The notes under the pieces: generated by a model
The model's input: the letters and a program-made list of their open reading frames with translations, nothing else
Database searches by the model: none
What the model was told of the DNA's origin: nothing
Made by a program: the position numbers and the translations under genes
DNA from: Vermamoeba vermiformis
Lineage: Eukaryota
Reading direction: 5' to 3'
Assembly (NCBI GenBank): GCA_045837725.1
Contig: JBEWZL010000101.1
Location: 496,001 to 526,162, forward strand
DNA length: 30,162 nucleotides
Shown here: piece by piece, positions 9,588 to 20,730 of the stretch
Numbering within the stretch: the first letter of the stretch is position 1
How the letters are laid out: each line of letters begins with the position of its first letter

Positions 9588-10209
9588 TTAACTTGATTCT
9601 TGCTTCTCTTTGTTCTCGGCGACATCATCGAGCTTATTAACTAGTTCTACTAATACATCACCATGGCAAGGCGCTGGTTTGCACTATCAACGAATTTAGA
9701 TCGGGATCTGAAATTGAAAGATCAAGGAACTTACCCAACAGCCAAGCACTTTGCCTTTTAATTCCGGTAAATCTTTTAATAATTTTTCGTTTTTCATTAA
9801 ATATTCTCGGTACTTCTCAACGGCGTTTTCATTCGTTTTGAGATCTTTGACTTTGAACGGATTTGCCCATTTGCTCGCTTTTAATCGCCAGCCACCCATG
9901 TTCATAGCTCGGCCGATATATACATCGCAGTCTTGAACAATTTGGCCATTTTTCCGCTTTAATTTCACTACAGTGGTTTTTGCCACCCCTTCAGTCTTTG
10001 TTCTACACGAAAATATTGAATAAATAATTTCAAAAATTTAGAATCTAAAAAATATTTAAAATAAGCAATAATCCGTTTTGGCTCGTCTGATCTCTTAGAT
10101 CTTACTTTTTAAGCGGAGGTTCTTCCTGAGTTAAATGTGATGCATCCGCTTTTCTCTTTTTCTCGTTCTTTTCAAATTTTAGTTTCGTTTGTGTTGTTTT
10201 GTTCGACAT
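9588..10209 (-). CDS. DUF4326 domain-containing protein; 3 exons
   Basis: Exons 10209-10106, 10002-9735 and 9683-9588. Family signature DVYIGR...SKWANPFK...AVEKYREYL...LPELKGKVLGCW|CKPAPCHGDVL, with GCWC..CHGD completed by splicing. Confidence 0.88.
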
Positions 10210-12719: not shown

Positions 12720-13072
12720 CGTGTTAGTATCTCTTGCCTGCCTTTAAAGTTAAAAAGACTTTCTTAATTACATAATGACAAGTGCTTGCGTGGTTTGTTA
12801 GTTGAAAAACGAACAAAAATAAACAATTCAAGATTTTTACTTGCTAGCGCTACTTTTCTTCGTTGAAAATCAGGAAGCTCCGCAGTCGAATATTGACTGC
12901 TTTATAAATCATGTTTGGCAGTTGAGAGGATCCATACAATCGTCCGTGACATGGAACAGATCTGTTCCATTGCAACGCTCGATTCAGCAGCCAGTAATTG
13001 TATTCTAGCATGCATCTGTCATAAGTTTAATAATAAATAAAAGTTTATTTTACATTGTTAACGGTATGAAAA

Positions 13073-15847
13073 TTAAGCCATAGGAATGGATGTAATATGC
13101 GGAGTGTTCTTCAATTGACGTCTTGAAGCAATATATCGCAATAATAGTCCTGATAATAGCACGGAATTGATCGGCATGAAGCTCGCACACGCTAAAATGC
13201 CAAATCCACTCGCTGCATTCACTGCATTGCCAAAACTGAGACCGAGAGCTAACACGAACGGAACTGTAACAGGACCTAATACAAAAAATATGAATAAGAC
13301 TCATCCACGGTGCATAAAATATTAGCTTATGCATATAATTTATCAATTTAAGTTGGTTAAATGAAGGCAATATTAGGTTGAAGAAAGAGATCTGTAGGCA
13401 AGATCTCGTTTTAAAATGAAATTTACCTGTTGTAACGCCAGCGCTATCCCAAGCAATATTGACAACGTCTTCTTGACTATAGTGCGTTAATACTAACGCT
13501 ACGCCGTAACCAACGATGATGAAGTAGATCAGTGAGAGTTGATAGAGGATAATAAGCACTCCTAATAACACGCCGGAGCCAACTCCGAGTGAAACTGCAA
13601 AGATGAGAATTGAGCTCTTAAACTGGCCCTGGGTGATTTGTTCCACTTTGGATCCCATGACGTTCATGACTGGTTCTGCAAATGTCGCCAAAACGCCCAA
13701 AAAGAATGCAAATAGGCATACGATGAGCAACCCGATCGATCGATCGAATAACGGCGAATTTTCAACGCCGTCAATGGCCATCAAACCCGTCGGCAAAACT
13801 TTTCCGAGAAGTCCAGCTAGTGGTGTCATGCCATAAGTCAGACCAAGATTGAACAATAGCATGCCTAGTTGTGCAAATCCAAAGCCTAGTAATATCATCT
13901 TCATAGATGTGCTAAACCAACTTCGGTTCTTTGGAGATCCGGATTCAGCCTCGCTGGATTCGCCACTCTCGAGCATATCCAATCGATTCTTCTCTTCGTA
14001 GCTTTCACTGTGTGAGTCCTCTGACTCGACTTCGGTGCCTACCATAGGAGCAGTATCTTTATATACTTGTTCTTTGCTTCTGGATCGCAAAAATTTGGAC
14101 GAAATGTCGTGGCCGGATGTAGTTCGTTCATTGAACATTTTTTGCTTGTGAAGCCATTCTTCGCGATCTTGAGTTGATACAAAGGCCGTAGTATCAATTA
14201 CGAAGCGTAGTTGAGGTACTACTGCTGCACCGGCTTTGGCTTCTTGTCGGTAACGTGCGATCTCTTCTTCAGAAGTTTCGTACAGGCCAAGTTCTTCCTT
14301 ATTAGCGCGCAGTACGTCCATTGAATTATTTAAGTTGACGTTAGGCGAACTTTCGACTGAAATGACGCGTAGTTCTTCTGATTTTGAAGCTTTTTGTTCG
14401 CTCGCATCCAACGCCATGATCTTGCGAAGAGTAATTTCTGGCAAGTGTCCTCGAAGGAATACTAATAGGACGACTATTAATAGAACTCCTAGCGGCACGA
14501 TAGCGCGAAAGGCGTAAATGACTTCGATGATTGGTGACTTTTCTAAGAACGGCAACTCGCTGTTGTGCTGAACTGACTTGGTCTCCTTCAAGATTTGGTC
14601 TATTGGCTTAGAGTACACCAATATGACACTAAGGATTTGGATACATAATACTGGCAGGAGCGCGGCCAAAGTGACAACTCCGAACGCATCCACTTTCTTG
14701 TTTGACTCTTCTTGTGGTCTTTCTTCGATAACTAAAAGAATTTTAGGACTCTATCCGATTGAATATTAATATAGTGCTTCGTTCGTACCTTCTTCTTCGA
14801 TAATTAAGCTATTAGTATTGAGCTTTGAGTTTCTTCTTTGAAGAAGCTGCGTTTCTCGTTCAAGTTGGTGTTTTCTGAACTCTTGTTGCGCACTGACACC
14901 AATACCAATCGATAATATAATAGGTACTGTTACTGGACCTAAATAAACAACATTAAGACCTGTGTAACGGGTTCAAATTTGACCGTCAAATTTCCAAACT
15001 AAAATTTTGACCGTCAAAAATTAAACGAGGACCACGTACCAGTTGCCACGACGCCAATATCCCAAGCCAAATTAATAAGAGGTCGTAGATTATCATTGGC
15101 CACGTGCATAAACAGCGACAGTGCAATAGTTGATCCGCCGATCGAGTAGATGAGCGGCTTGAGTGACCATCGTCTCGTGAACCTGATGATGCCTAATACG
15201 GTTGCTGTTCCTACTCCAAGTCCAATCGACAAGACGAGCATTTCGCGCCAATTGTTGACCATGTAGAACAAATAAGGCTGTTGTTTCCGCTTTACTTCTG
15301 ACGTCAGTGGCGCTATGGCTGCAATGGCTGGCTCGGCGTAAGTAACTGCAATGCCAATGACAAATGAGAGCATCAATACGAGGGCTATATGGAGCTTTTC
15401 GGGCATTAAGCGGCCAATGGATTCGCCAAGTGGCATCAAGGCAAATTTTAATCCTTCAATAAATAAAGTCAAGCCTAATATGACTGCTAATATTCCAAAT
15501 CCAACGACTGCGCCATTTTCTGCTGATTGGTGGAATATTAAAGCTGCAAATAAGACGAAATAAAGTGTGATCGGGATAATGACTTTGATCTGCTCGTATA
15601 GCTGTAATAAGAAGTAGTGCGTCACGTCGTAATGTTTGAATGCGTTGAATTGCTTCCATAGCTTCTTATATTTCTTTAGTACGAATTGTGGGAGTAAATT
15701 AAATGGAAACGGAGCGCGGATCTTGATGCGAGTTGGATCTGCTACCGACTCAAAGGTTAGAAAATATTAATATCATAGTTGATTTTAATGACAATATTAA
15801 GGCTTACCGTTATTTCCATTATCTACTAGACTTTCTTGTTCACTCAT
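13073..15847 (-). CDS. Membrane protein with two tandem DUF1538 domains separated by a long hydrophilic loop; 5 exons
   Basis: Half 1: GLTLFIEGLKFALMPLGESIG, TYAEPAI, WDIGVVATG|PVTVPIILSIGIG, DAFGVVTLAALLPV. Half 2: GMLLFNLGLTYGMTPL, TFAEPVM, WDSAGVTTG|PVTVPFVLALG, SGFGILACASFMPI. ATG at 15847; stop at 13075-13073. Confidence 0.88.
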
Positions 15848-16607
15848 TTTAATCGGATTTAATTTTTTGCATCCGTTTCATTATTTCTTTAGTGGTAAAA
15901 TGAAATAAAAATACCTCAGCGAGATGCATAAAAGATCGCTCTCGATATTTCATAAATTTGCTTAAATAATCATTGAAATCTCGTAATTTATTTAGCAAAC
16001 TGGTTGAGATTCGCAATAAAAAACAGAGTAAAGGCGCTAAAAATTCTACGACTGATCGAAATAAAAATATTACCGTGCAAAACAGGTCTGTCTGGCTCAG
16101 AAAAACGCCGGACCACCAATCCACTCTAATGAACCAACCTTTTGCTCATACCGTGTAGAATAATGATTATTTGTTATGAATGTAAAGGACGTTTTTGGTT
16201 GGTGAGCAAACAGGCTAGATGTGCAACACGTTGCTGGTGGTAAACATAATGACAAAGAGAAAGCTCCGAACAAGACCCAAGAGTAATCACACAAAGGAAA
16301 ACGATTGCTTTTCGATTACGCTCCAAGTAATGTGCCAAAAAGAGACTTTGTTGTAGTACTACAGCAAGCCAAAGTCTGGTCCTAGGACAAGCGGATCAGA
16401 ATCTGACCCTGCGAGTCCAGATCAGCACTTTTCCACTCCTTTTCATTTGCAGACGAGACAGCCGTTGATTTCTGGGAATTTATTGCTCGCATTACGCTGA
16501 TTGGTCAAGCATCAAGCTCAAAACCTCTCGATTTTTGTTGATTAAATTATCTTGCACACCGCGACACAACGATCGAACCACACTTCACACCTCTGCCGCA
16601 ATATTAA

Positions 16608-18570
16608 ATGCCTAGTGCTAAAGGAAAACAACGATTATCTTCGTCGCCCGTGCTGACCGAAGTACGCGCTGGTGAGAATGGAAATGGAATCGCGGGTAAA
16701 GGCAGCGCCAGCGAGAAGAAAAAGAAAATTATGCGCTTAAAAGAGTTTAGAGAGCTGTTACAAAAGAAAGTAAGGCAATAGTAATGCTAAATATCGAGGT
16801 TTATCAAGACCATCGCGTGATCTTGCGACTAACTAATATTTTTTCGCTTTTAGCTCAAGTACGACATCGGTACAAGTGCCAGACATATTCGCAATTGGGT
16901 TAATGATAAAAAGCCGTATTTGCCGCCCCGCTCGCCATTTTCATTGTTGCAAGAGCTGTTTTTCTACGATCCGTGGAAAGTTTTGATCGCCTGCATGGTA
17001 AGAAAATTAAAGCGATATTTTTAATATTATTTTCATCGATAATAAGCCTCAATGAGCGATTTAATCGCGGCCAACCATTTTCCTGGAATTTTAATTATCT
17101 GATCCAAATTTGACGTGACATTTTTTTCTTTAGTTCCTCAACAAAACTTCGGGCAAACAAGTCTCTACTGTATTATATAAATTCTTTAGCCGTTATCCAA
17201 CGCCTATTGACCTTCGAGACTCGAACAGAGAAGATGTGATCGCGATCATAAAACCGCTCGGGTAAGTAGCACCTCACAGCTATATATCGTCGGTCATGCG
17301 CTAACCATGCTAAATAGATTATTTAATAAGCGAGCTGACATGATTGTTCACTTTACAAAAGAGTTTTTGGCGGGTAATTGGCGGATGCCAGATCAGATCA
17401 AAGGTGCGTGGCTTTCTTTAACTCTCTAATCGCACAAAAATACTGTAACGTGCTTTAAAATAGTAATTTTATCGTTTGATAGGTATTGGAAAGTACGCTA
17501 ACGACGCTTATCGAATCTTTTGCTGCGGTGAATTCAAAGACGTGCAGCCAAACGATCACGCGTTGAACAAGTACCATGAGTGGCTTATCAAAGAAGATAA
17601 TAGGGACCAAGATAGTAAAAAAGTAAGTCGGTTAATAGTAAGGCTAATCTTGGATCGAAACTAAGCGGCTGTATTCAAAAGGGTTCTGGATCTGCTTCAT
17701 CCAGCGAAAATAACAGCAATGATTCGCAAGATAGTCAAAATCCACGTGAAATTTCAAGCAATGAGAGTGACCAGGACGAAAAAGAAGAAGAAAAGCCGAA
17801 CACAAAGTCAAAAAAGAATTCAGGCGTCAAAGAATCAAAGTCAGCGCATCATCAAGCGTTCTTAGTGGCCGGAGAATTAAAATGGAATATCCGACGTGAA
17901 GATTTGAATATTTCGCAAGAAGAACGTGATTGGTGGTCTGAATTGTTCGACATCCGAGACTATTTCTACAAAAAGTTCCAGAACGTTGAAATCGATGCTC
18001 AAAGTGATGAAATCTCGCAATCTGAAGAGGAGGTCGTTATAGAAAAATTGCCTAAAATGGCAAAATCTGCGACCAAAAAACGAAAAATTGAGATCGAGGA
18101 AGATGGGTACGAAAAGAAATCGAAAAAGAAGCAAAAAATTGACAAGGAAGCGGCCAAGTTAGAAAAACAACGCGCAAAAGAGGAGAAAAAGCTGGAAAAG
18201 GCCCAAAAGAAGGAGAATAAGAAAAAGAAGCAGATCGATCGTGAGGCCAACAAAGAAAAATCGACTGCAGAGCGTTCTTTACCAGAGAACTCGATTGTTA
18301 TTACTGTAAGTATTGTTAGCATAATTCTTAATACCTTGAATATAACTAACCTACCCCTAGAAAACGAATTTGCCTCCTGGATGGAGATTCGAAATCCGAA
18401 AGCGACAATCGGGTGGCACTAAAGGAAGAGAAGATTACTATTGGTAATTATCGCTCGTATTTAGCGCTAAATCATCGGCTTACACTGACTTTGACCTCAG
18501 GTACTCACCAGAAGGAAGAAAGTTCCGCAGTTTGGTTGAGATCCGAAAGCACCTTGCTAGTCAAAAATAG
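16608..18570 (+). CDS. MBD4: MBD4-like HhH-GPD G:T/U mismatch DNA glycosylase with a C-terminal methyl-CpG-binding domain (478 aa, 8 exons)
   Basis: Exons 16608-16769, 16854-16997, 17134-17261, 17318-17403, 17483-17622, 17682-18305, 18361-18443 and 18501-18570 total 1437 nt in frame. Glycosylase: [115 protein letters not shown]. Confidence 0.92.
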
Positions 18571-18654
18571 ATGCAGCAATCATATAAAGGTTAAATACAA
18601 GCGACTTTCGTCAGACTTGCAAAAACATTTTATTTTTGGCCCATAATATTAGCG

Positions 18655-19167
18655 TTACATTGTAAGAATTTTTCTGGGGATTAATCCGTAAGACAGAGCT
18701 CGAAAAACAACTACTACTAGTCCAATTATCTTTCCGGGGCTATAAAGATCGTTCGGAAGTAAATAAAAGATTAGAAACTGGACGAAGAAGTCAACGAGGC
18801 AAGTAGCGTAGCCAATCCAGCACAAGATCCGCACAGTTGTTCGTAATTTTGAGCTGTGCCCGAGTGACAAGGCGATGCCAAGTATAGGTCCTGATAATAG
18901 CACCATATCTACACCAAAGAGTAGTGCGGCGTAAGTGAAATCACTGGGGTATGATAGCCCAGAAGCAATGTAGCAGTAATGCCAAGCAAACGATAACGTC
19001 GATACAAAAGCAGACCATTCTGAAGTGTTTGGTCCGTCGCAAGGGGCTGGCAATGCAGGTGAATCTAGATAGTGTATTGGTAAGAAGGAGAGGCCTAGTA
19101 AGGTCAATGTTAAAGCCATTATTGACATTCCTAATAAATCTTTGTTGACGTGCTGTTTTTGCTGCAT
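18655..19167 (-). CDS. Intronless hypothetical membrane protein (170 aa, ~4 hydrophobic helices)
   Basis: ATG-to-TAA ORF filling the gap between the MBD4-like and ADH genes, with several long hydrophobic stretches. No family recognised. Confidence 0.65.
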   Translation of the reverse strand: MQQKQHVNKDLLGMSIMALTLTLLGLSFLPIHYLDSPALPAPCDGPNTSEWSAFVSTLSFAWHYCYIASGLSYPSDFTYAALLFGVDMVLLSGPILGIALSLGHSSKLRTTVRILCWIGYATCLVDFFVQFLIFYLLPNDLYSPGKIIGLVVVVFRALSYGLIPRKILTM

Positions 19168-19323
19168 TTTCGTGTAAACTATTGTTTAAAGCTAATAGGA
19201 ATTAATTTATGTCCGGTTCATAATTTGAACCAGTCCGCTGACGTGGACTTTTTTCTTTTTTTCGTTTCACGTCATAGGGACCGTTTGTTGCATTAAACAT
19301 TTTATCAACAATAATTAACAATA

Positions 19324-20730
19324 TTAATCAAACTTCAATACAGCGCGGAAGCGAACTTTGTTGGTCATCATCGCTTGATAAGCTTCGTTGACTTTGTCGA
19401 GCGGGAAGACTTCAATCATTGGACGAACACCAGTCAAAGCTGCAAAGTTGAGTGTGTCTTCGGTTTCAATAGGAGTACCGCTAGGCCTATAAAGATAGCG
19501 TATTAGATCCGAATCTGCAGCTAAAAATTCTCGAACAAGCAAATTTAACTTACCAACCGACAACACCACGGCGTTGACCAATCAAATCGAAAGCACCAAC
19601 TTTAAGAGGCTCATGAGGAATTCCGAGAACGAAAACACGACCGTCAGGAGCCAAACCAGGAGTAAGTGCTGAGATCGCATCTGCGTGAGGAGCAGTAGCG
19701 AGAATGACTTTAGCACCGCCGAGGGCTTGCAAGGCCTTAGCAGGGTCTTCCTTAGAGACGTCAATATAGATATGAGCACCGAGCTTCGTGGCCAGCTCTT
19801 TCTTGTCGGATCCGGAAGAAAGGGCGGCAACCTTGTAGCCCATCTTGGCAGCGAATTGGACACCTACACGAGTATTAATATCGAGCCACGATAATACATA
19901 GTTATAGTGCTTACCAAGGTGACCCAAACCACCCAAACCCTGGACTGCAACGAGATCACCAGCCTTGGCGTCAGAGTGACGAAGAGGGTTGTACACAGTG
20001 ATGCCTGCACACATCAATGGTGCTGCTTCTTCGAAGGACAAATCATCGGGAATGCGTGCAAGGGCTTCAAAAGGCACTATAGAAAATAAATAAGTATTAA
20101 TACTGAAAATTGGATTTGTAACGGATGCGCTCGTTGCATGCTGCGTATGTAATCAATGGTTGGAGCGATAATTTACCTGTAATATAGTTGCTGTATCCTC
20201 CGCTATAAGAAACACCGCAAATCTTCTCGTGTTTGCAAGTCATCCAGTCACCGCGACGGCATCTGTCGCACTGGAAGCAGTGACCACCGTGCCAGCCAAC
20301 ACCAACGCGATCTCCAGCCTTCCACTCAAGAACACCAGCACCGACCTATTAAATAAGCGATTAATTAAGAGTGATCAAACTAAAAATCGGATCGCATCTA
20401 ATTTACTCGTGTTAATACGCATGAAGACATACCTTATCGATAACACCGGCAACTTCGTGTCCGGGGCTAATAGGGTATTGAATAGTCGGGAAGACTCCTT
20501 CCTTAGTGAACATATCGCTGCAAAATCAAGAGGTCAGATTCGCGCGAAAAAATTTGATCCAGCAATTTTTAATAAATAATAAGAATTCTGGTATTAATTG
20601 CTACTAACCTATGGCATATACCACATGCGTGCACTTTAATACGCACTTGGTTTTGAGCAGGTTCAGGGAGGCTCTTTTCTTGAACGACGAATCGTTCGGC
20701 TCTAGCTTTTTCAACGACGGCAGCTTTCAT
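19324..20730 (-). CDS. Zinc-dependent medium-chain alcohol dehydrogenase (AdhP/CAD-like); ~6 exons
   Basis: MKAAVVEK...ACGICH|SD; PGHEVAG; GDRVGVGW; structural Zn motif CFQCDRCRRGDWMTC; AAPLMCAGITVYNPL; VQGLGGLGHLG; C-terminal KVRFRAVLKFD. Confidence 0.93.

What the first reader, a model, noticed from the sequence alone, without database searches (positions are those of the whole stretch)
16608..18570. MBD4-like glycosylase with reversed domain order: intact methyl-CpG-binding domain at the C-terminus, split by an intron
Seen: the last two exons (18361-18443, 18501-18570), which the ORF track does not translate in the right frame, splice to [39 protein letters not shown]. This aligns without gaps to the MeCP2 MBD as I recall it ([39 protein letters not shown]) and keeps the equivalents of R111, D121, Y123 and R133. 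The glycosylase keeps the catalytic Asp ([10 protein letters not shown]) and lies N-terminal, followed by a ~250-aa Ser/Glu/Lys-rich linker. Established: animal MBD4 is MBD-linker-glycosylase and plant MBD4L has no MBD. Inference: a permuted or independent MBD-glycosylase fusion, implying that this protist reads and repairs methylated CpG.
Basis: partly seen in the sequence, partly recalled or inferred. Interest (0 to 1): 0.8.

Follow-up and report, generated by a model that had tools for sequence, protein, structure and literature searches.

The report
Glycosylase-first, MBD-last MBD4-like repair gene
This is a real, spliced eukaryotic gene whose protein has an MBD4-type thymine/uracil mismatch glycosylase at the front and a short methyl-CpG-binding domain at the very end, the reverse of animal MBD4, and probably a separate fusion of the two modules.

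Summary
An 8-exon GT..AG gene (16608-18570, +) gives a 478-aa product. Spliced contigs of public run X1 carry introns 3-7, including both junctions around the MBD exons. A 477-aa orthologue from elsewhere (P0001) is 77% identical end to end. It passes Pfam for HhH-GPD (31.5 bits) and MBD (38.4 bits), with the MBD at the C-terminus.

Three corrections:
Both are conserved.
- The MBD is a core only (Pfam positions 9-56 of 77) and lacks the C-terminal hairpin.
- The "linker" holds a conserved ~55-aa Trp-Trp helix block and a long charged helix.

Among the 150 best of 3058 relatives, 53 are MBD-then-glycosylase and only the orthologue is reversed. The glycosylase groups with MBD-less relatives, one carrying an N-terminal chromodomain, apart from nearly all canonical MBD4s. 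This favours an independent fusion.

Reading methylated CpG is inferred, not shown. The window has no CpG depletion (o/e 1.25), and no genome was available to look for DNMTs. I rate it a new variant of a known kind, of moderate interest.

The parts
16608..18570 (+). Whole coding region of the MBD4-like gene: 8 exons, 478 aa, TAG stop at 18568-18570
   Evidence: Open spliced frame with 7 GT..AG introns. 77% identical over the full length to P0001.
16608..16769 (+). Exon 1: basic N-terminal tail (aa 1-54)
   Evidence: The intron 1 joint is seen in RNA reads of a relative: X6-X8, joint 16767/16852, 3, 2 and 5 reads.
16854..17622 (+). Exons 2-5 (16854-16997, 17134-17261, 17318-17403, 17483-17622): MBD4-type HhH-GPD glycosylase domain, aa ~57-215
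   Evidence: The orthologue aligns without gaps to human and mouse MBD4 catalytic domains, E 1.6e-49. The model superposes at TM 0.94-0.98 and rmsd 0.7-1.2 Å. Introns 3-5 are spliced in X1 contigs.
17554..17556 (+). Codon of Asp198, equivalent to the catalytic Asp534 of mouse MBD4 (QPND motif)
   Evidence: It lies 20 residues after the Tyr of GKY, the same spacing as Tyr514 to Asp534 in mouse (passages of PMC3458566; alignment; mapping).
17503..17505 (+). Codon of Asp181 (GKYAND). It is invariant in the family but is not the Asp534 equivalent.
17143..17145 (+). Codon of Lys106, at the position of the arginine finger (mouse Arg442, FLNR motif)
   Evidence: Alignment, paper passages, mapping. 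P0001 also has Lys here. P0152, P0080 and P0125 have Arg.
17682..18305 (+). Exon 6: spacer of 208 aa (Ser/acidic stretch, conserved Trp-Trp block, basic stretch, long charged helix)
17868..18035 (+). Conserved post-glycosylase 'Trp-Trp' helix block (aa 283-338)
   Evidence: 89% identical to P0001, against 60-64% for the flanking segments. A profile of it also finds P0152, P0080, P0125 and P0065 directly after their glycosylase domains. Predicted helix at P0001 297-337, pLDDT about 87-91.
18108..18269 (+). Lys/Glu-rich segment (aa 363-416) predicted as one long helix
   Evidence: K+R 43%, D+E 20%. Helix at P0001 362-415, pLDDT about 90-95.
18306..18360 (+). Intron 6 (55 nt), just before the MBD
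   Evidence: X1 contig joint 18304/18360 skips 55 nt. P0002, an ORF call on a relative's genomic DNA, runs into an intron at the same point.
18361..18443 (+). Exon 7: first half of the MBD, holding Arg443, Asp453 and Tyr455
   Evidence: Pfam MBD profile 10-32. Gap-free alignment of the orthologue to MBD2. Residue mapping.
18444..18500 (+). Intron 7 (57 nt), splitting the MBD inside a Trp codon
   Evidence: X1 contig joint 18442/18500, GT..AG
18501..18570 (+). Exon 8: second half of the MBD (Arg465, helix) and the stop codon
   Evidence: Pfam MBD profile 36-56. The X1 contig runs on unspliced to 18577, past the stop.

Best explanation
**What it is.** An expressed nuclear gene for a base-excision repair enzyme of the MBD4 family.

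**Shown**
- The N-terminal half is an MBD4-type helix-hairpin-helix glycosylase.
- It keeps the catalytic Asp (aa 198), the thymine-recognising Tyr and Gln, and the intercalating Leu residues.
- The C-terminal 50 residues are a methyl-CpG-binding-domain core. It keeps both DNA-reading arginines and the Asp and Tyr of methyl-CpG-selective MBDs.
- Between the two lie a disordered Ser/acidic stretch, a conserved Trp-Trp helix that marks a small clade of these glycosylases, and a long charged helix.

**Inferred**
- The MBD parks the enzyme on methylated CpG DNA.
- The long spacer lets the catalytic domain sweep neighbouring sites.
- The glycosylase flips out and removes T or U opposite G, the deamination products of 5-methylcytosine and cytosine. 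This leaves an abasic site for AP endonuclease.
- The MBD was added at the C-terminus within a clade of MBD-less glycosylases, independently of the N-terminal MBD of animal MBD4.
For: **Gene and splicing.** The frame is open with 7 GT..AG introns. Spliced contigs in X1 cover introns 3-7. RNA reads of a 90-95%-alike relative (X6-X8) cover introns 1 and 3.

**Orthologue.** P0001 is 77% identical over the full length. Pfam gives MBD 38.4 bits (cut-off 21) at 427-474 and HhH-GPD 31.5 bits (cut-off 26.2) at 99-181.

**Glycosylase.**
- Gap-free alignment to solved MBD4 catalytic domains, E 1.6e-49.
- Structural match at TM 0.94-0.98.
- Residue mapping rests on passages of PMC3458566.

**MBD.**
- Gap-free alignment to MBD2, E 1.4e-10.
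- The model's C-terminal strands and helix match MBD2 and MBD4 MBD structures at rmsd 1.7-1.9 Å over 44-47 columns.

**Selection.** Identity to P0001 is 46/47 in the MBD core, 144/159 in the glycosylase and 50/56 in the Trp-Trp block. Elsewhere it is 25-64%.

**Origin.**
- In the 150-row tree, the window protein and P0001 sit with P0065, P0125, P0152, P0050 and P0080 (SH-aLRT 92). This group lies outside a starred 104-row clade that holds 52 of 53 MBD-first proteins.
- In the careful 51-row tree, that 7-row group has support 81/73. A 98/91 branch separates it from 17 of 18 MBD-first rows.
Against: - No binding or activity data exist.
- Each MBD exon of the window alone is below the Pfam cut-off (16.5 and 15.3 bits).
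- The MBD lacks Pfam positions 57-77, the C-terminal hairpin.
- The arginine finger is Lys, and the Leu485 equivalent is also Lys.
- There is no CpG depletion in 30 kb: o/e 1.25, minimum 1.06.
- RNA runs X6-X8 gave zero depth over 18214-18900. The relative's MBD exons are therefore not shown to be expressed in those runs.
- No single X1 contig spans glycosylase to MBD.
- Support for the 7-row clade is only moderate, and the tree is unrooted.
- The source of the MBD is unresolved. It scores 43.7 bits to MBD2, 32.3-32.7 to vertebrate MBD4 MBDs, and 18.1-44.1 to the MBDs of the 53 MBD-first proteins.
- Only 150 of 3058 hits were listed.
Confidence: 0.62

Rival explanations
1. The architecture is the same, but the C-terminal MBD does not read 5-methyl-CpG. 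As a shortened MBD it would act as a general DNA or chromatin tether, a mismatch (TpG/CpG) sensor, or a protein-interaction module. The genome would have little or no CpG methylation.
For: - No CpG depletion anywhere in the window.
- The MBD lacks the last ~20 positions of the Pfam model.
- No DNMT could be looked for.
- From my own knowledge, not from a call: some MBD-family domains (MBD3, MBD5/6, BAZ2 TAM domains) do not select methyl-CpG.
Against: - Both arginines, the Asp and the Tyr align with those of methyl-CpG-binding MBD2.
- The MBD core is the best-conserved segment of the protein, 46/47.
- Gene-rich DNA can be unmethylated in organisms that methylate only transposons, so the CpG ratio of one window is weak evidence.
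Confidence: 0.28
2. The reversed order arose by rearrangement (domain permutation or exon shuffling) of an ancestral MBD-first MBD4, not by a separate fusion.
For: - The MBD scores as well against the MBDs of some MBD-first MBD4-type proteins (up to 44.1 bits) as against MBD2 (43.7 bits).
- The tree is unrooted and clade support is moderate.
- Several clade members are fragments whose N-termini are unknown.
Against: - The five nearest glycosylases show no MBD. The one labelled complete (P0152) carries an N-terminal chromodomain instead.
- A starred branch separates the clade from 17 of 18 sampled MBD-first proteins.
Confidence: 0.2
3. This is a gene-model artefact: a glycosylase gene and a separate small MBD gene or pseudo-exon wrongly joined.
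For: No single X1 contig covers the whole transcript, and X6-X8 reads do not cover the last exons.
Against: - Exon 6 is one open frame from 17682 to 18305. X1 contigs join it to exon 5 and to exons 7-8.
- P0001, on a 1542-nt contig, encodes the whole two-domain protein in one frame.
- The stop codon follows exon 8 with only 85 nt before the next ORF, which lies on the other strand.
Confidence: 0.02

Closest known systems
Animal MBD4 (MED1; KEGG K10801), e.g. human and mouse MBD4
   Same: - The catalytic domain aligns gap-free at about 52-54% identity, with near-identical predicted fold.
- The catalytic Asp, the Tyr, the Gln and the two intercalating Leu residues are kept.
- It also pairs the glycosylase with an MBD through a long spacer.
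   Different: [quoted passage not shown]
- The MBD here lacks the C-terminal hairpin.
- The arginine finger is Lys.
- A Trp-Trp helix block and a long charged helix follow the glycosylase.
- The glycosylase falls outside the clade holding nearly all MBD-first proteins.
Plant MBD4L
   Same: An MBD4-type glycosylase that is not preceded by an MBD.
   Different: Plant homologues lack any MBD and keep a long N-terminal extension (passage of review PMC9266487). Here the N-terminal tail is only ~56 aa and an MBD is present at the C-terminus.
P0152 and its kin (P0080, P0125, P0065, P0050): unnamed MBD4-type glycosylases with the Trp-Trp tail
   Same: - They are the nearest glycosylase relatives in the trees.
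- Four of the five (P0152, P0080, P0125, P0065) share the post-glycosylase Trp-Trp block.
   Different: None has an MBD. P0152 instead has an N-terminal chromodomain (Pfam Chromo, 56.6 bits, residues 31-79). In all of them the block follows the glycosylase directly, without the long Ser/acidic spacer.
MBD2/MBD3-type methyl-CpG-binding domains
   Same: This is the best solved-structure sequence match of the C-terminal domain: MBD2, E 1.4e-10, gap-free, with both arginines, the Asp and the Tyr aligned.
   Different: Those proteins are NuRD subunits without a catalytic domain. Their MBDs include the C-terminal hairpin that is missing here.

Membership tests
MBD4-type HhH-GPD mismatch glycosylases | Sequence and fold of the MBD4 catalytic domain | tested here: met
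   On orthologue P0001: Pfam HhH-GPD 31.5 bits, cut-off 26.2. phmmer to 15 MBD4 chains, E 1.6e-49 to 8.6e-48, gap-free. Foldseek TM 0.94-0.98. The window product is 91% identical to P0001 in this domain.
MBD4-type HhH-GPD mismatch glycosylases | Catalytic Asp (mouse Asp534) 20 residues after the active-site Tyr (Tyr514), and Gln423 | tested here: met
   Asp198, Tyr178 and Gln87 of the window product. The Asp column is at least 90% conserved in a 42-sequence alignment.
MBD4-type HhH-GPD mismatch glycosylases | DNA-invading residues: arginine finger (Arg442) and intercalating Leu480/Leu482 | tested here: inconclusive
   Leu144 and Leu146 are kept. The finger position is Lys106 in both the window product and P0001, while the nearest kin keep Arg. 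The effect on activity is unknown.
MBD4-type HhH-GPD mismatch glycosylases | Excision of T/U opposite G | not testable with these tools
   Needs an enzyme assay.
Animal MBD4 (K10801) architecture | N-terminal MBD followed by C-terminal glycosylase | tested here: not met
   Glycosylase at aa ~57-215, MBD at aa ~429-475. Of 54 two-domain proteins among the 150 best relatives, 53 have the canonical order.
Methyl-CpG-binding domain (Pfam PF01429) | Score above Pfam's gathering cut-off | tested here: met
   P0001 scores 38.4 bits against a cut-off of 21. The window's two MBD exons scanned singly give 16.5 and 15.3 bits, collinear. The spliced window product could not be sent to the Pfam tool.
Methyl-CpG-binding domain (Pfam PF01429) | Two DNA-reading arginines plus the Asp and Tyr of methyl-CpG-selective MBDs | tested here: met
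   Arg443, Asp453, Tyr455 and Arg465 align with the corresponding MBD2 residues. The same columns are conserved in 53 MBD4-type MBDs. The role of the two arginines is stated in the review passage of PMC9266487. The roles of Asp and Tyr are recalled.
Methyl-CpG-binding domain (Pfam PF01429) | Complete domain including the C-terminal hairpin (profile positions 57-77) | tested here: not met
   The match covers profile 9-56 of 77 and the protein ends 3 residues later. An X1 contig reads through the stop without further splicing.
Methyl-CpG-binding domain (Pfam PF01429) | Preferential binding to methylated CpG | not testable with these tools
   Needs EMSA or a similar assay.

The most novel reading that the evidence does not exclude
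A small clade of MBD4-type glycosylases, marked by a conserved Trp-Trp helix after the catalytic domain, has repeatedly captured different chromatin readers. One member has an N-terminal chromodomain, and this lineage has a C-terminal MBD. Coupling of deamination repair to heterochromatin marks would then have evolved convergently at least three times, counting animal MBD4. This lineage's version would work with a minimal, hairpin-less MBD held on a rigid charged helix.
Probability: 0.45. Interest if true: 0.6.

Novelty: new variant of a known kind. Interest (0 to 1): 0.5.

Why it matters
MBD4 is the textbook case of a repair enzyme tethered to the epigenetic mark whose decay it repairs. A second, independently built tether with the opposite domain order would show that the coupling itself is selected, not the particular architecture. 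So would a sister protein that uses a chromodomain instead.

It also offers a natural minimal MBD for testing what the C-terminal hairpin contributes. The gene could serve as a marker for asking whether its host lineage methylates CpG.

Tried and rejected
- **Whole genome.** None is held for this window, so no DNMT, UHRF1 or TET search was possible.
- **The look-up of sequencing runs.** No RNA holder was listed. Five contig runs held small shares of the words (0.08-0.14), and three raw RNA runs were added by species label.
- **The search for homologous proteins.**
  - The exon 6 query found only P0001.
  - The whole-P0001 query found 3 proteins among 8000 candidates, apparently swamped by low-complexity words.
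  - The MBD-region query found only P0001 among 8 candidates.
  - None of these is evidence of absence.
- **ESM Atlas.** It gave only generic glycosylase and MBD clusters, best score 0.90, and no structure search.
- **Metagenome scan.** It returned one syntenic locus, L001, that ends at query residue 330, before the MBD.
- **Rfam and tRNA scans of the window.** No matches.
- **Pfam on the spacer exon.** Only a weak EB1 motif hit (E 0.048), discarded.
- **Minus-strand ORF 17999-18418.** This is the mirror of the Lys/Glu-rich coding stretch and I did not take it as a gene.
- **Bdelloid rotifer as source.** I considered and dropped this. A table and passage of PMC6264785 list MBD4 as absent from Adineta vaga.
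- **Literature.** Six full-text searches turned up no description of a glycosylase-then-MBD protein. They cover only the open-access library, and I judged the results from listings and abstracts.
Full report
**What is in the sequence**

Reading 16300-18900 and joining the candidate exons gives an 8-exon gene on the + strand:

| Exon | Coordinates |
|---|---|
| 1 | 16608-16769 |
| 2 | 16854-16997 |
| 3 | 17134-17261 |
| 4 | 17318-17403 |
| 5 | 17483-17622 |
| 6 | 17682-18305 |
| 7 | 18361-18443 |
| 8 | 18501-18570 |

- All seven introns are GT..AG and 55-136 nt long. The frame is open for 478 aa and ends at TAG.
- Four of the seven introns carry CTAAC or CTGAC 10-20 nt before the 3' AG.
- The next ORF, on the other strand, starts 85 nt after the stop. 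The genome is therefore compact.
No whole genome is held.

**Is the gene model real?**

Three independent lines agree.

1. *Spliced contigs.* Public run X1 (Logan contigs, 95-99% alike) gives three contigs. Their joints are at 17260/17317, 17401/17481, 17622/17682, 18304/18360 and 18442/18500, which are introns 3 to 7.
- One 225-nt contig spans 18241-18577.
   - The 18304/18360 joint sits one base left of my model. It equals the modelled GT..AG intron if that strain has a different, synonymous last exon base. This is an inference.
2. *RNA reads of a relative.* Raw RNA reads of a 90-95%-alike relative (X6-X8) show joints for intron 1 (3, 2 and 5 reads) and intron 3 (1, 7 and 11 reads, with 5 other letters between).
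   - They give zero depth over 18214-18900, so they say nothing about the MBD exons.
   - It aligns with the spliced window product over the full length at 77% identity (367/479), continuous across every exon junction.

Two further pieces of support:
- P0002 and P0014 are short ORF calls on a relative's genomic DNA that run into introns at the same positions.
- Metagenome locus L001 is syntenic, with the same upstream DUF1538 gene at 78% DNA identity. It ends at residue 330.

**The two domains**

*Pfam.*
- Scanned singly, exon 7 and exon 8 hit Pfam MBD at profile positions 10-32 (16.5 bits) and 36-56 (15.3 bits). The hits are collinear, but each is under the 21-bit cut-off.
- P0001 passes both cut-offs: MBD 38.4 bits at 427-474, and HhH-GPD 31.5 bits at 99-181.

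*Solved structures.*
- P0001 residues 70-213 align without gaps to human and mouse MBD4 catalytic domains, E 1.6e-49.
- Its last 50 residues align without gaps to MBD2, E 1.4e-10. MeCP2, MBD1, MBD3, plant MBD5/6 and MBD4 MBDs follow.

*Predicted structure.* I made an AlphaFold2 model of P0001 from a 42-sequence alignment (mean pLDDT 74.8).
- The glycosylase has pLDDT above 90.
- Two strands plus a helix at 434-476 have pLDDT of about 68-90.
- Foldseek matches the glycosylase to MBD4 structures at TM 0.94-0.98.
- Foldseek matches the C-terminal piece to MBD2 and MBD4 MBD structures at rmsd 1.7-1.9 Å over 44-47 columns.

*The catalytic Asp.* In mouse MBD4 the catalytic residue is Asp534, with Tyr514, Gln423, the Arg442 finger and the intercalating Leu482 (passages of PMC3458566). 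Laying these spacings on the alignment gives the window equivalents below.

| Mouse MBD4 | Window product | Motif or note |
|---|---|---|
| Tyr514 | Tyr178 | GKY |
| Asp534 | Asp198 | QPND, 20 residues after the Tyr |
| Gln423 | Gln87 | kept |
| Leu480 / Leu482 | Leu144 / Leu146 | kept |
| Arg442 (finger) | Lys106 | substituted |
| Leu485 | Lys | substituted |

- Human numbering that I hold from memory fits the same mapping.
- P0001 shares the Lys at the finger position. The nearest kin keep Arg.

*The MBD.* It is not complete. The Pfam match covers positions 9-56 of 77, and the protein ends three residues later. Most of the 53 canonical MBD4-type MBDs continue into a Phe-x-Phe hairpin. The residues that matter for reading CpG are present: Arg443, Asp453, Tyr455 and Arg465.

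*The spacer (aa 216-428).* It is not just low complexity.
- A ~55-aa block with a Trp-Trp motif (aa 283-338) is 89% identical to P0001.
- It is predicted as a confident helix.
- Residues 363-416, which are 43% Lys+Arg, are predicted as one long helix with pLDDT of about 90-95.

**Conservation**

| Segment | Identity to P0001 |
|---|---|
| MBD core | 46/47 |
| Glycosylase | 144/159 |
| Trp-Trp block | 50/56 |
| All other segments | 25-64% |

The MBD is the most conserved part of the protein. This argues that it is functional.

**How unusual is the order?**

- A profile-free HMMER search of 1.84 billion representatives with P0001 gave 3058 hits at E <= 0.001, and the best 150 were listed.
- In the box, 54 of the 151 proteins (P0001 included) had an MBD match at E <= 0.01. 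Of these, 53 have the MBD before the glycosylase. Only P0001 has it after. The other 97 had no MBD match.
- HMMER's whole-sequence score adds domains in any order. A reversed two-domain relative of similar similarity should therefore have ranked among these 150.
- More distant ones among the 2908 unlisted hits remain unexamined.
- Six literature searches found no description of the reversed order. They cover open-access text only, judged from listings and abstracts.
- The review PMC9266487 (passages) describes only the animal form and the MBD-less plant form.

**Origin**

*The Trp-Trp block clade.* A profile of the block finds it directly after the glycosylase in P0152, P0080, P0125 and P0065. 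P0152 is labelled a complete transcriptome ORF. It has an N-terminal chromodomain (56.6 bits) and no MBD.

*First tree.* Glycosylase domains of 150 of the 154 sequences held. I dropped four with none, or with fewer than 110 matched positions. Quick method, LG+G4.
- The window protein and P0001 (99*) sit with P0065, P0125, P0152, P0050 and P0080 (SH-aLRT 92).
- This group lies outside a starred 104-row clade holding 52 of 53 MBD-first proteins.

*Second tree.* A careful mixture-model tree of 51 rows: the 7 clade rows plus every third of the others with at least 130 residues. Six long or compositionally odd rows were left out.
- The 7-row group has support of 81/73.
- A 98/91 branch puts it with 12 MBD-less rows and one MBD-first row (P0067), away from the other 17 MBD-first rows.

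The tree is unrooted and several clade members are fragments. An independent C-terminal capture of the MBD is therefore favoured, not proven.

*Source of the MBD.* This is unresolved. Bit scores to MBD2 (43.7), to some MBD4-type MBDs (up to 44.1) and to vertebrate MBD4 MBDs (about 32.5) overlap.

**Does the organism methylate CpG?**

This could not be tested. The only proxy is the CpG observed/expected ratio in the window. It is 1.25 overall, close to GpC at 1.29, and never below 1.06 in 2-kb windows. This gene-rich stretch shows no deamination decay. That is weak evidence against global or gene-body methylation, and it is silent on transposon-restricted methylation.

**Mechanism proposed**

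*Shown:* an expressed, spliced, conserved two-domain protein with an apparently competent MBD4-type active site and an MBD core with the CpG-reading residues.

*Inferred:*
- The MBD anchors the protein on methylated CpG.
- The disordered and helical spacer gives reach.
- The glycosylase removes T or U opposite G and hands an abasic site to the rest of base-excision repair.
- The basic stretches in the spacer look like nuclear-localisation signals. This rests on my own knowledge and was not tested.
- The Trp-Trp helix may pack on the catalytic domain or bind a partner. This is also untested.

**Verdict**

The finding is real and the architecture claim stands. Three details needed correcting: the catalytic Asp, the completeness of the MBD, and the nature of the linker. 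It is a new variant of a known kind rather than a new system. Automatic annotation already calls the orthologue MBD4. The functional inference about methylated CpG remains open.

Noticed in passing
window 17868-18035 (aa 283-338); also P0152 256-313, P0080 115-168, P0125 119-185, P0065 153-196: A conserved block with a Trp-Trp motif follows the glycosylase domain in a small clade of MBD4-type enzymes and has no Pfam family. It is predicted as a confident long helix.
   Followed up: partly
P0152 (313 aa, transcriptome ORF): The nearest non-orthologous relative is a chromodomain-glycosylase fusion: Chromo at 31-79, then the MBD4-type glycosylase, then the Trp-Trp tail. This is a different reader on the same enzyme.
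   Followed up: partly
window 17143-17145: The arginine finger of MBD4 (FLNR motif) is Lys in the window protein and in P0001, but Arg in P0152, P0080 and P0125.
   Followed up: partly
window 18108-18269: A 54-residue Lys/Glu-rich stretch is predicted as a single long helix (pLDDT about 90-95). It could be a rigid spacer, a coiled coil or a non-specific DNA-binding arm.
   Followed up: no
window 13050-15766 (- strand); L001 3-2288: The upstream divergent neighbour carries two DUF1538 membrane domains (Pfam E 1.1e-40 and 4.1e-32). It is syntenic with the MBD4-like gene in metagenome locus L001 at 78% DNA identity.
   Followed up: partly
window 1-30162: CpG is over-represented rather than depleted (o/e 1.25, GpC 1.29). 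It rises to 1.4-1.6 in 25-30 kb.
   Followed up: partly
window 18655-19185 (- strand): A 176-aa hydrophobic ORF with no Pfam match begins only 85 nt after the MBD4-like stop codon, convergent with it.
   Followed up: no
window 9696-10037 (- strand) and 19550-20152 (- strand): There is a DUF4326 domain ORF (E 1.2e-16) and a zinc-type alcohol dehydrogenase exon (ADH_zinc_N, E 5.4e-16).
   Followed up: no
P0067 (324 aa): One MBD-first protein sits in the otherwise MBD-less clade of glycosylases with long N-terminal extensions. This hints at yet another separate MBD-glycosylase fusion.
   Followed up: no
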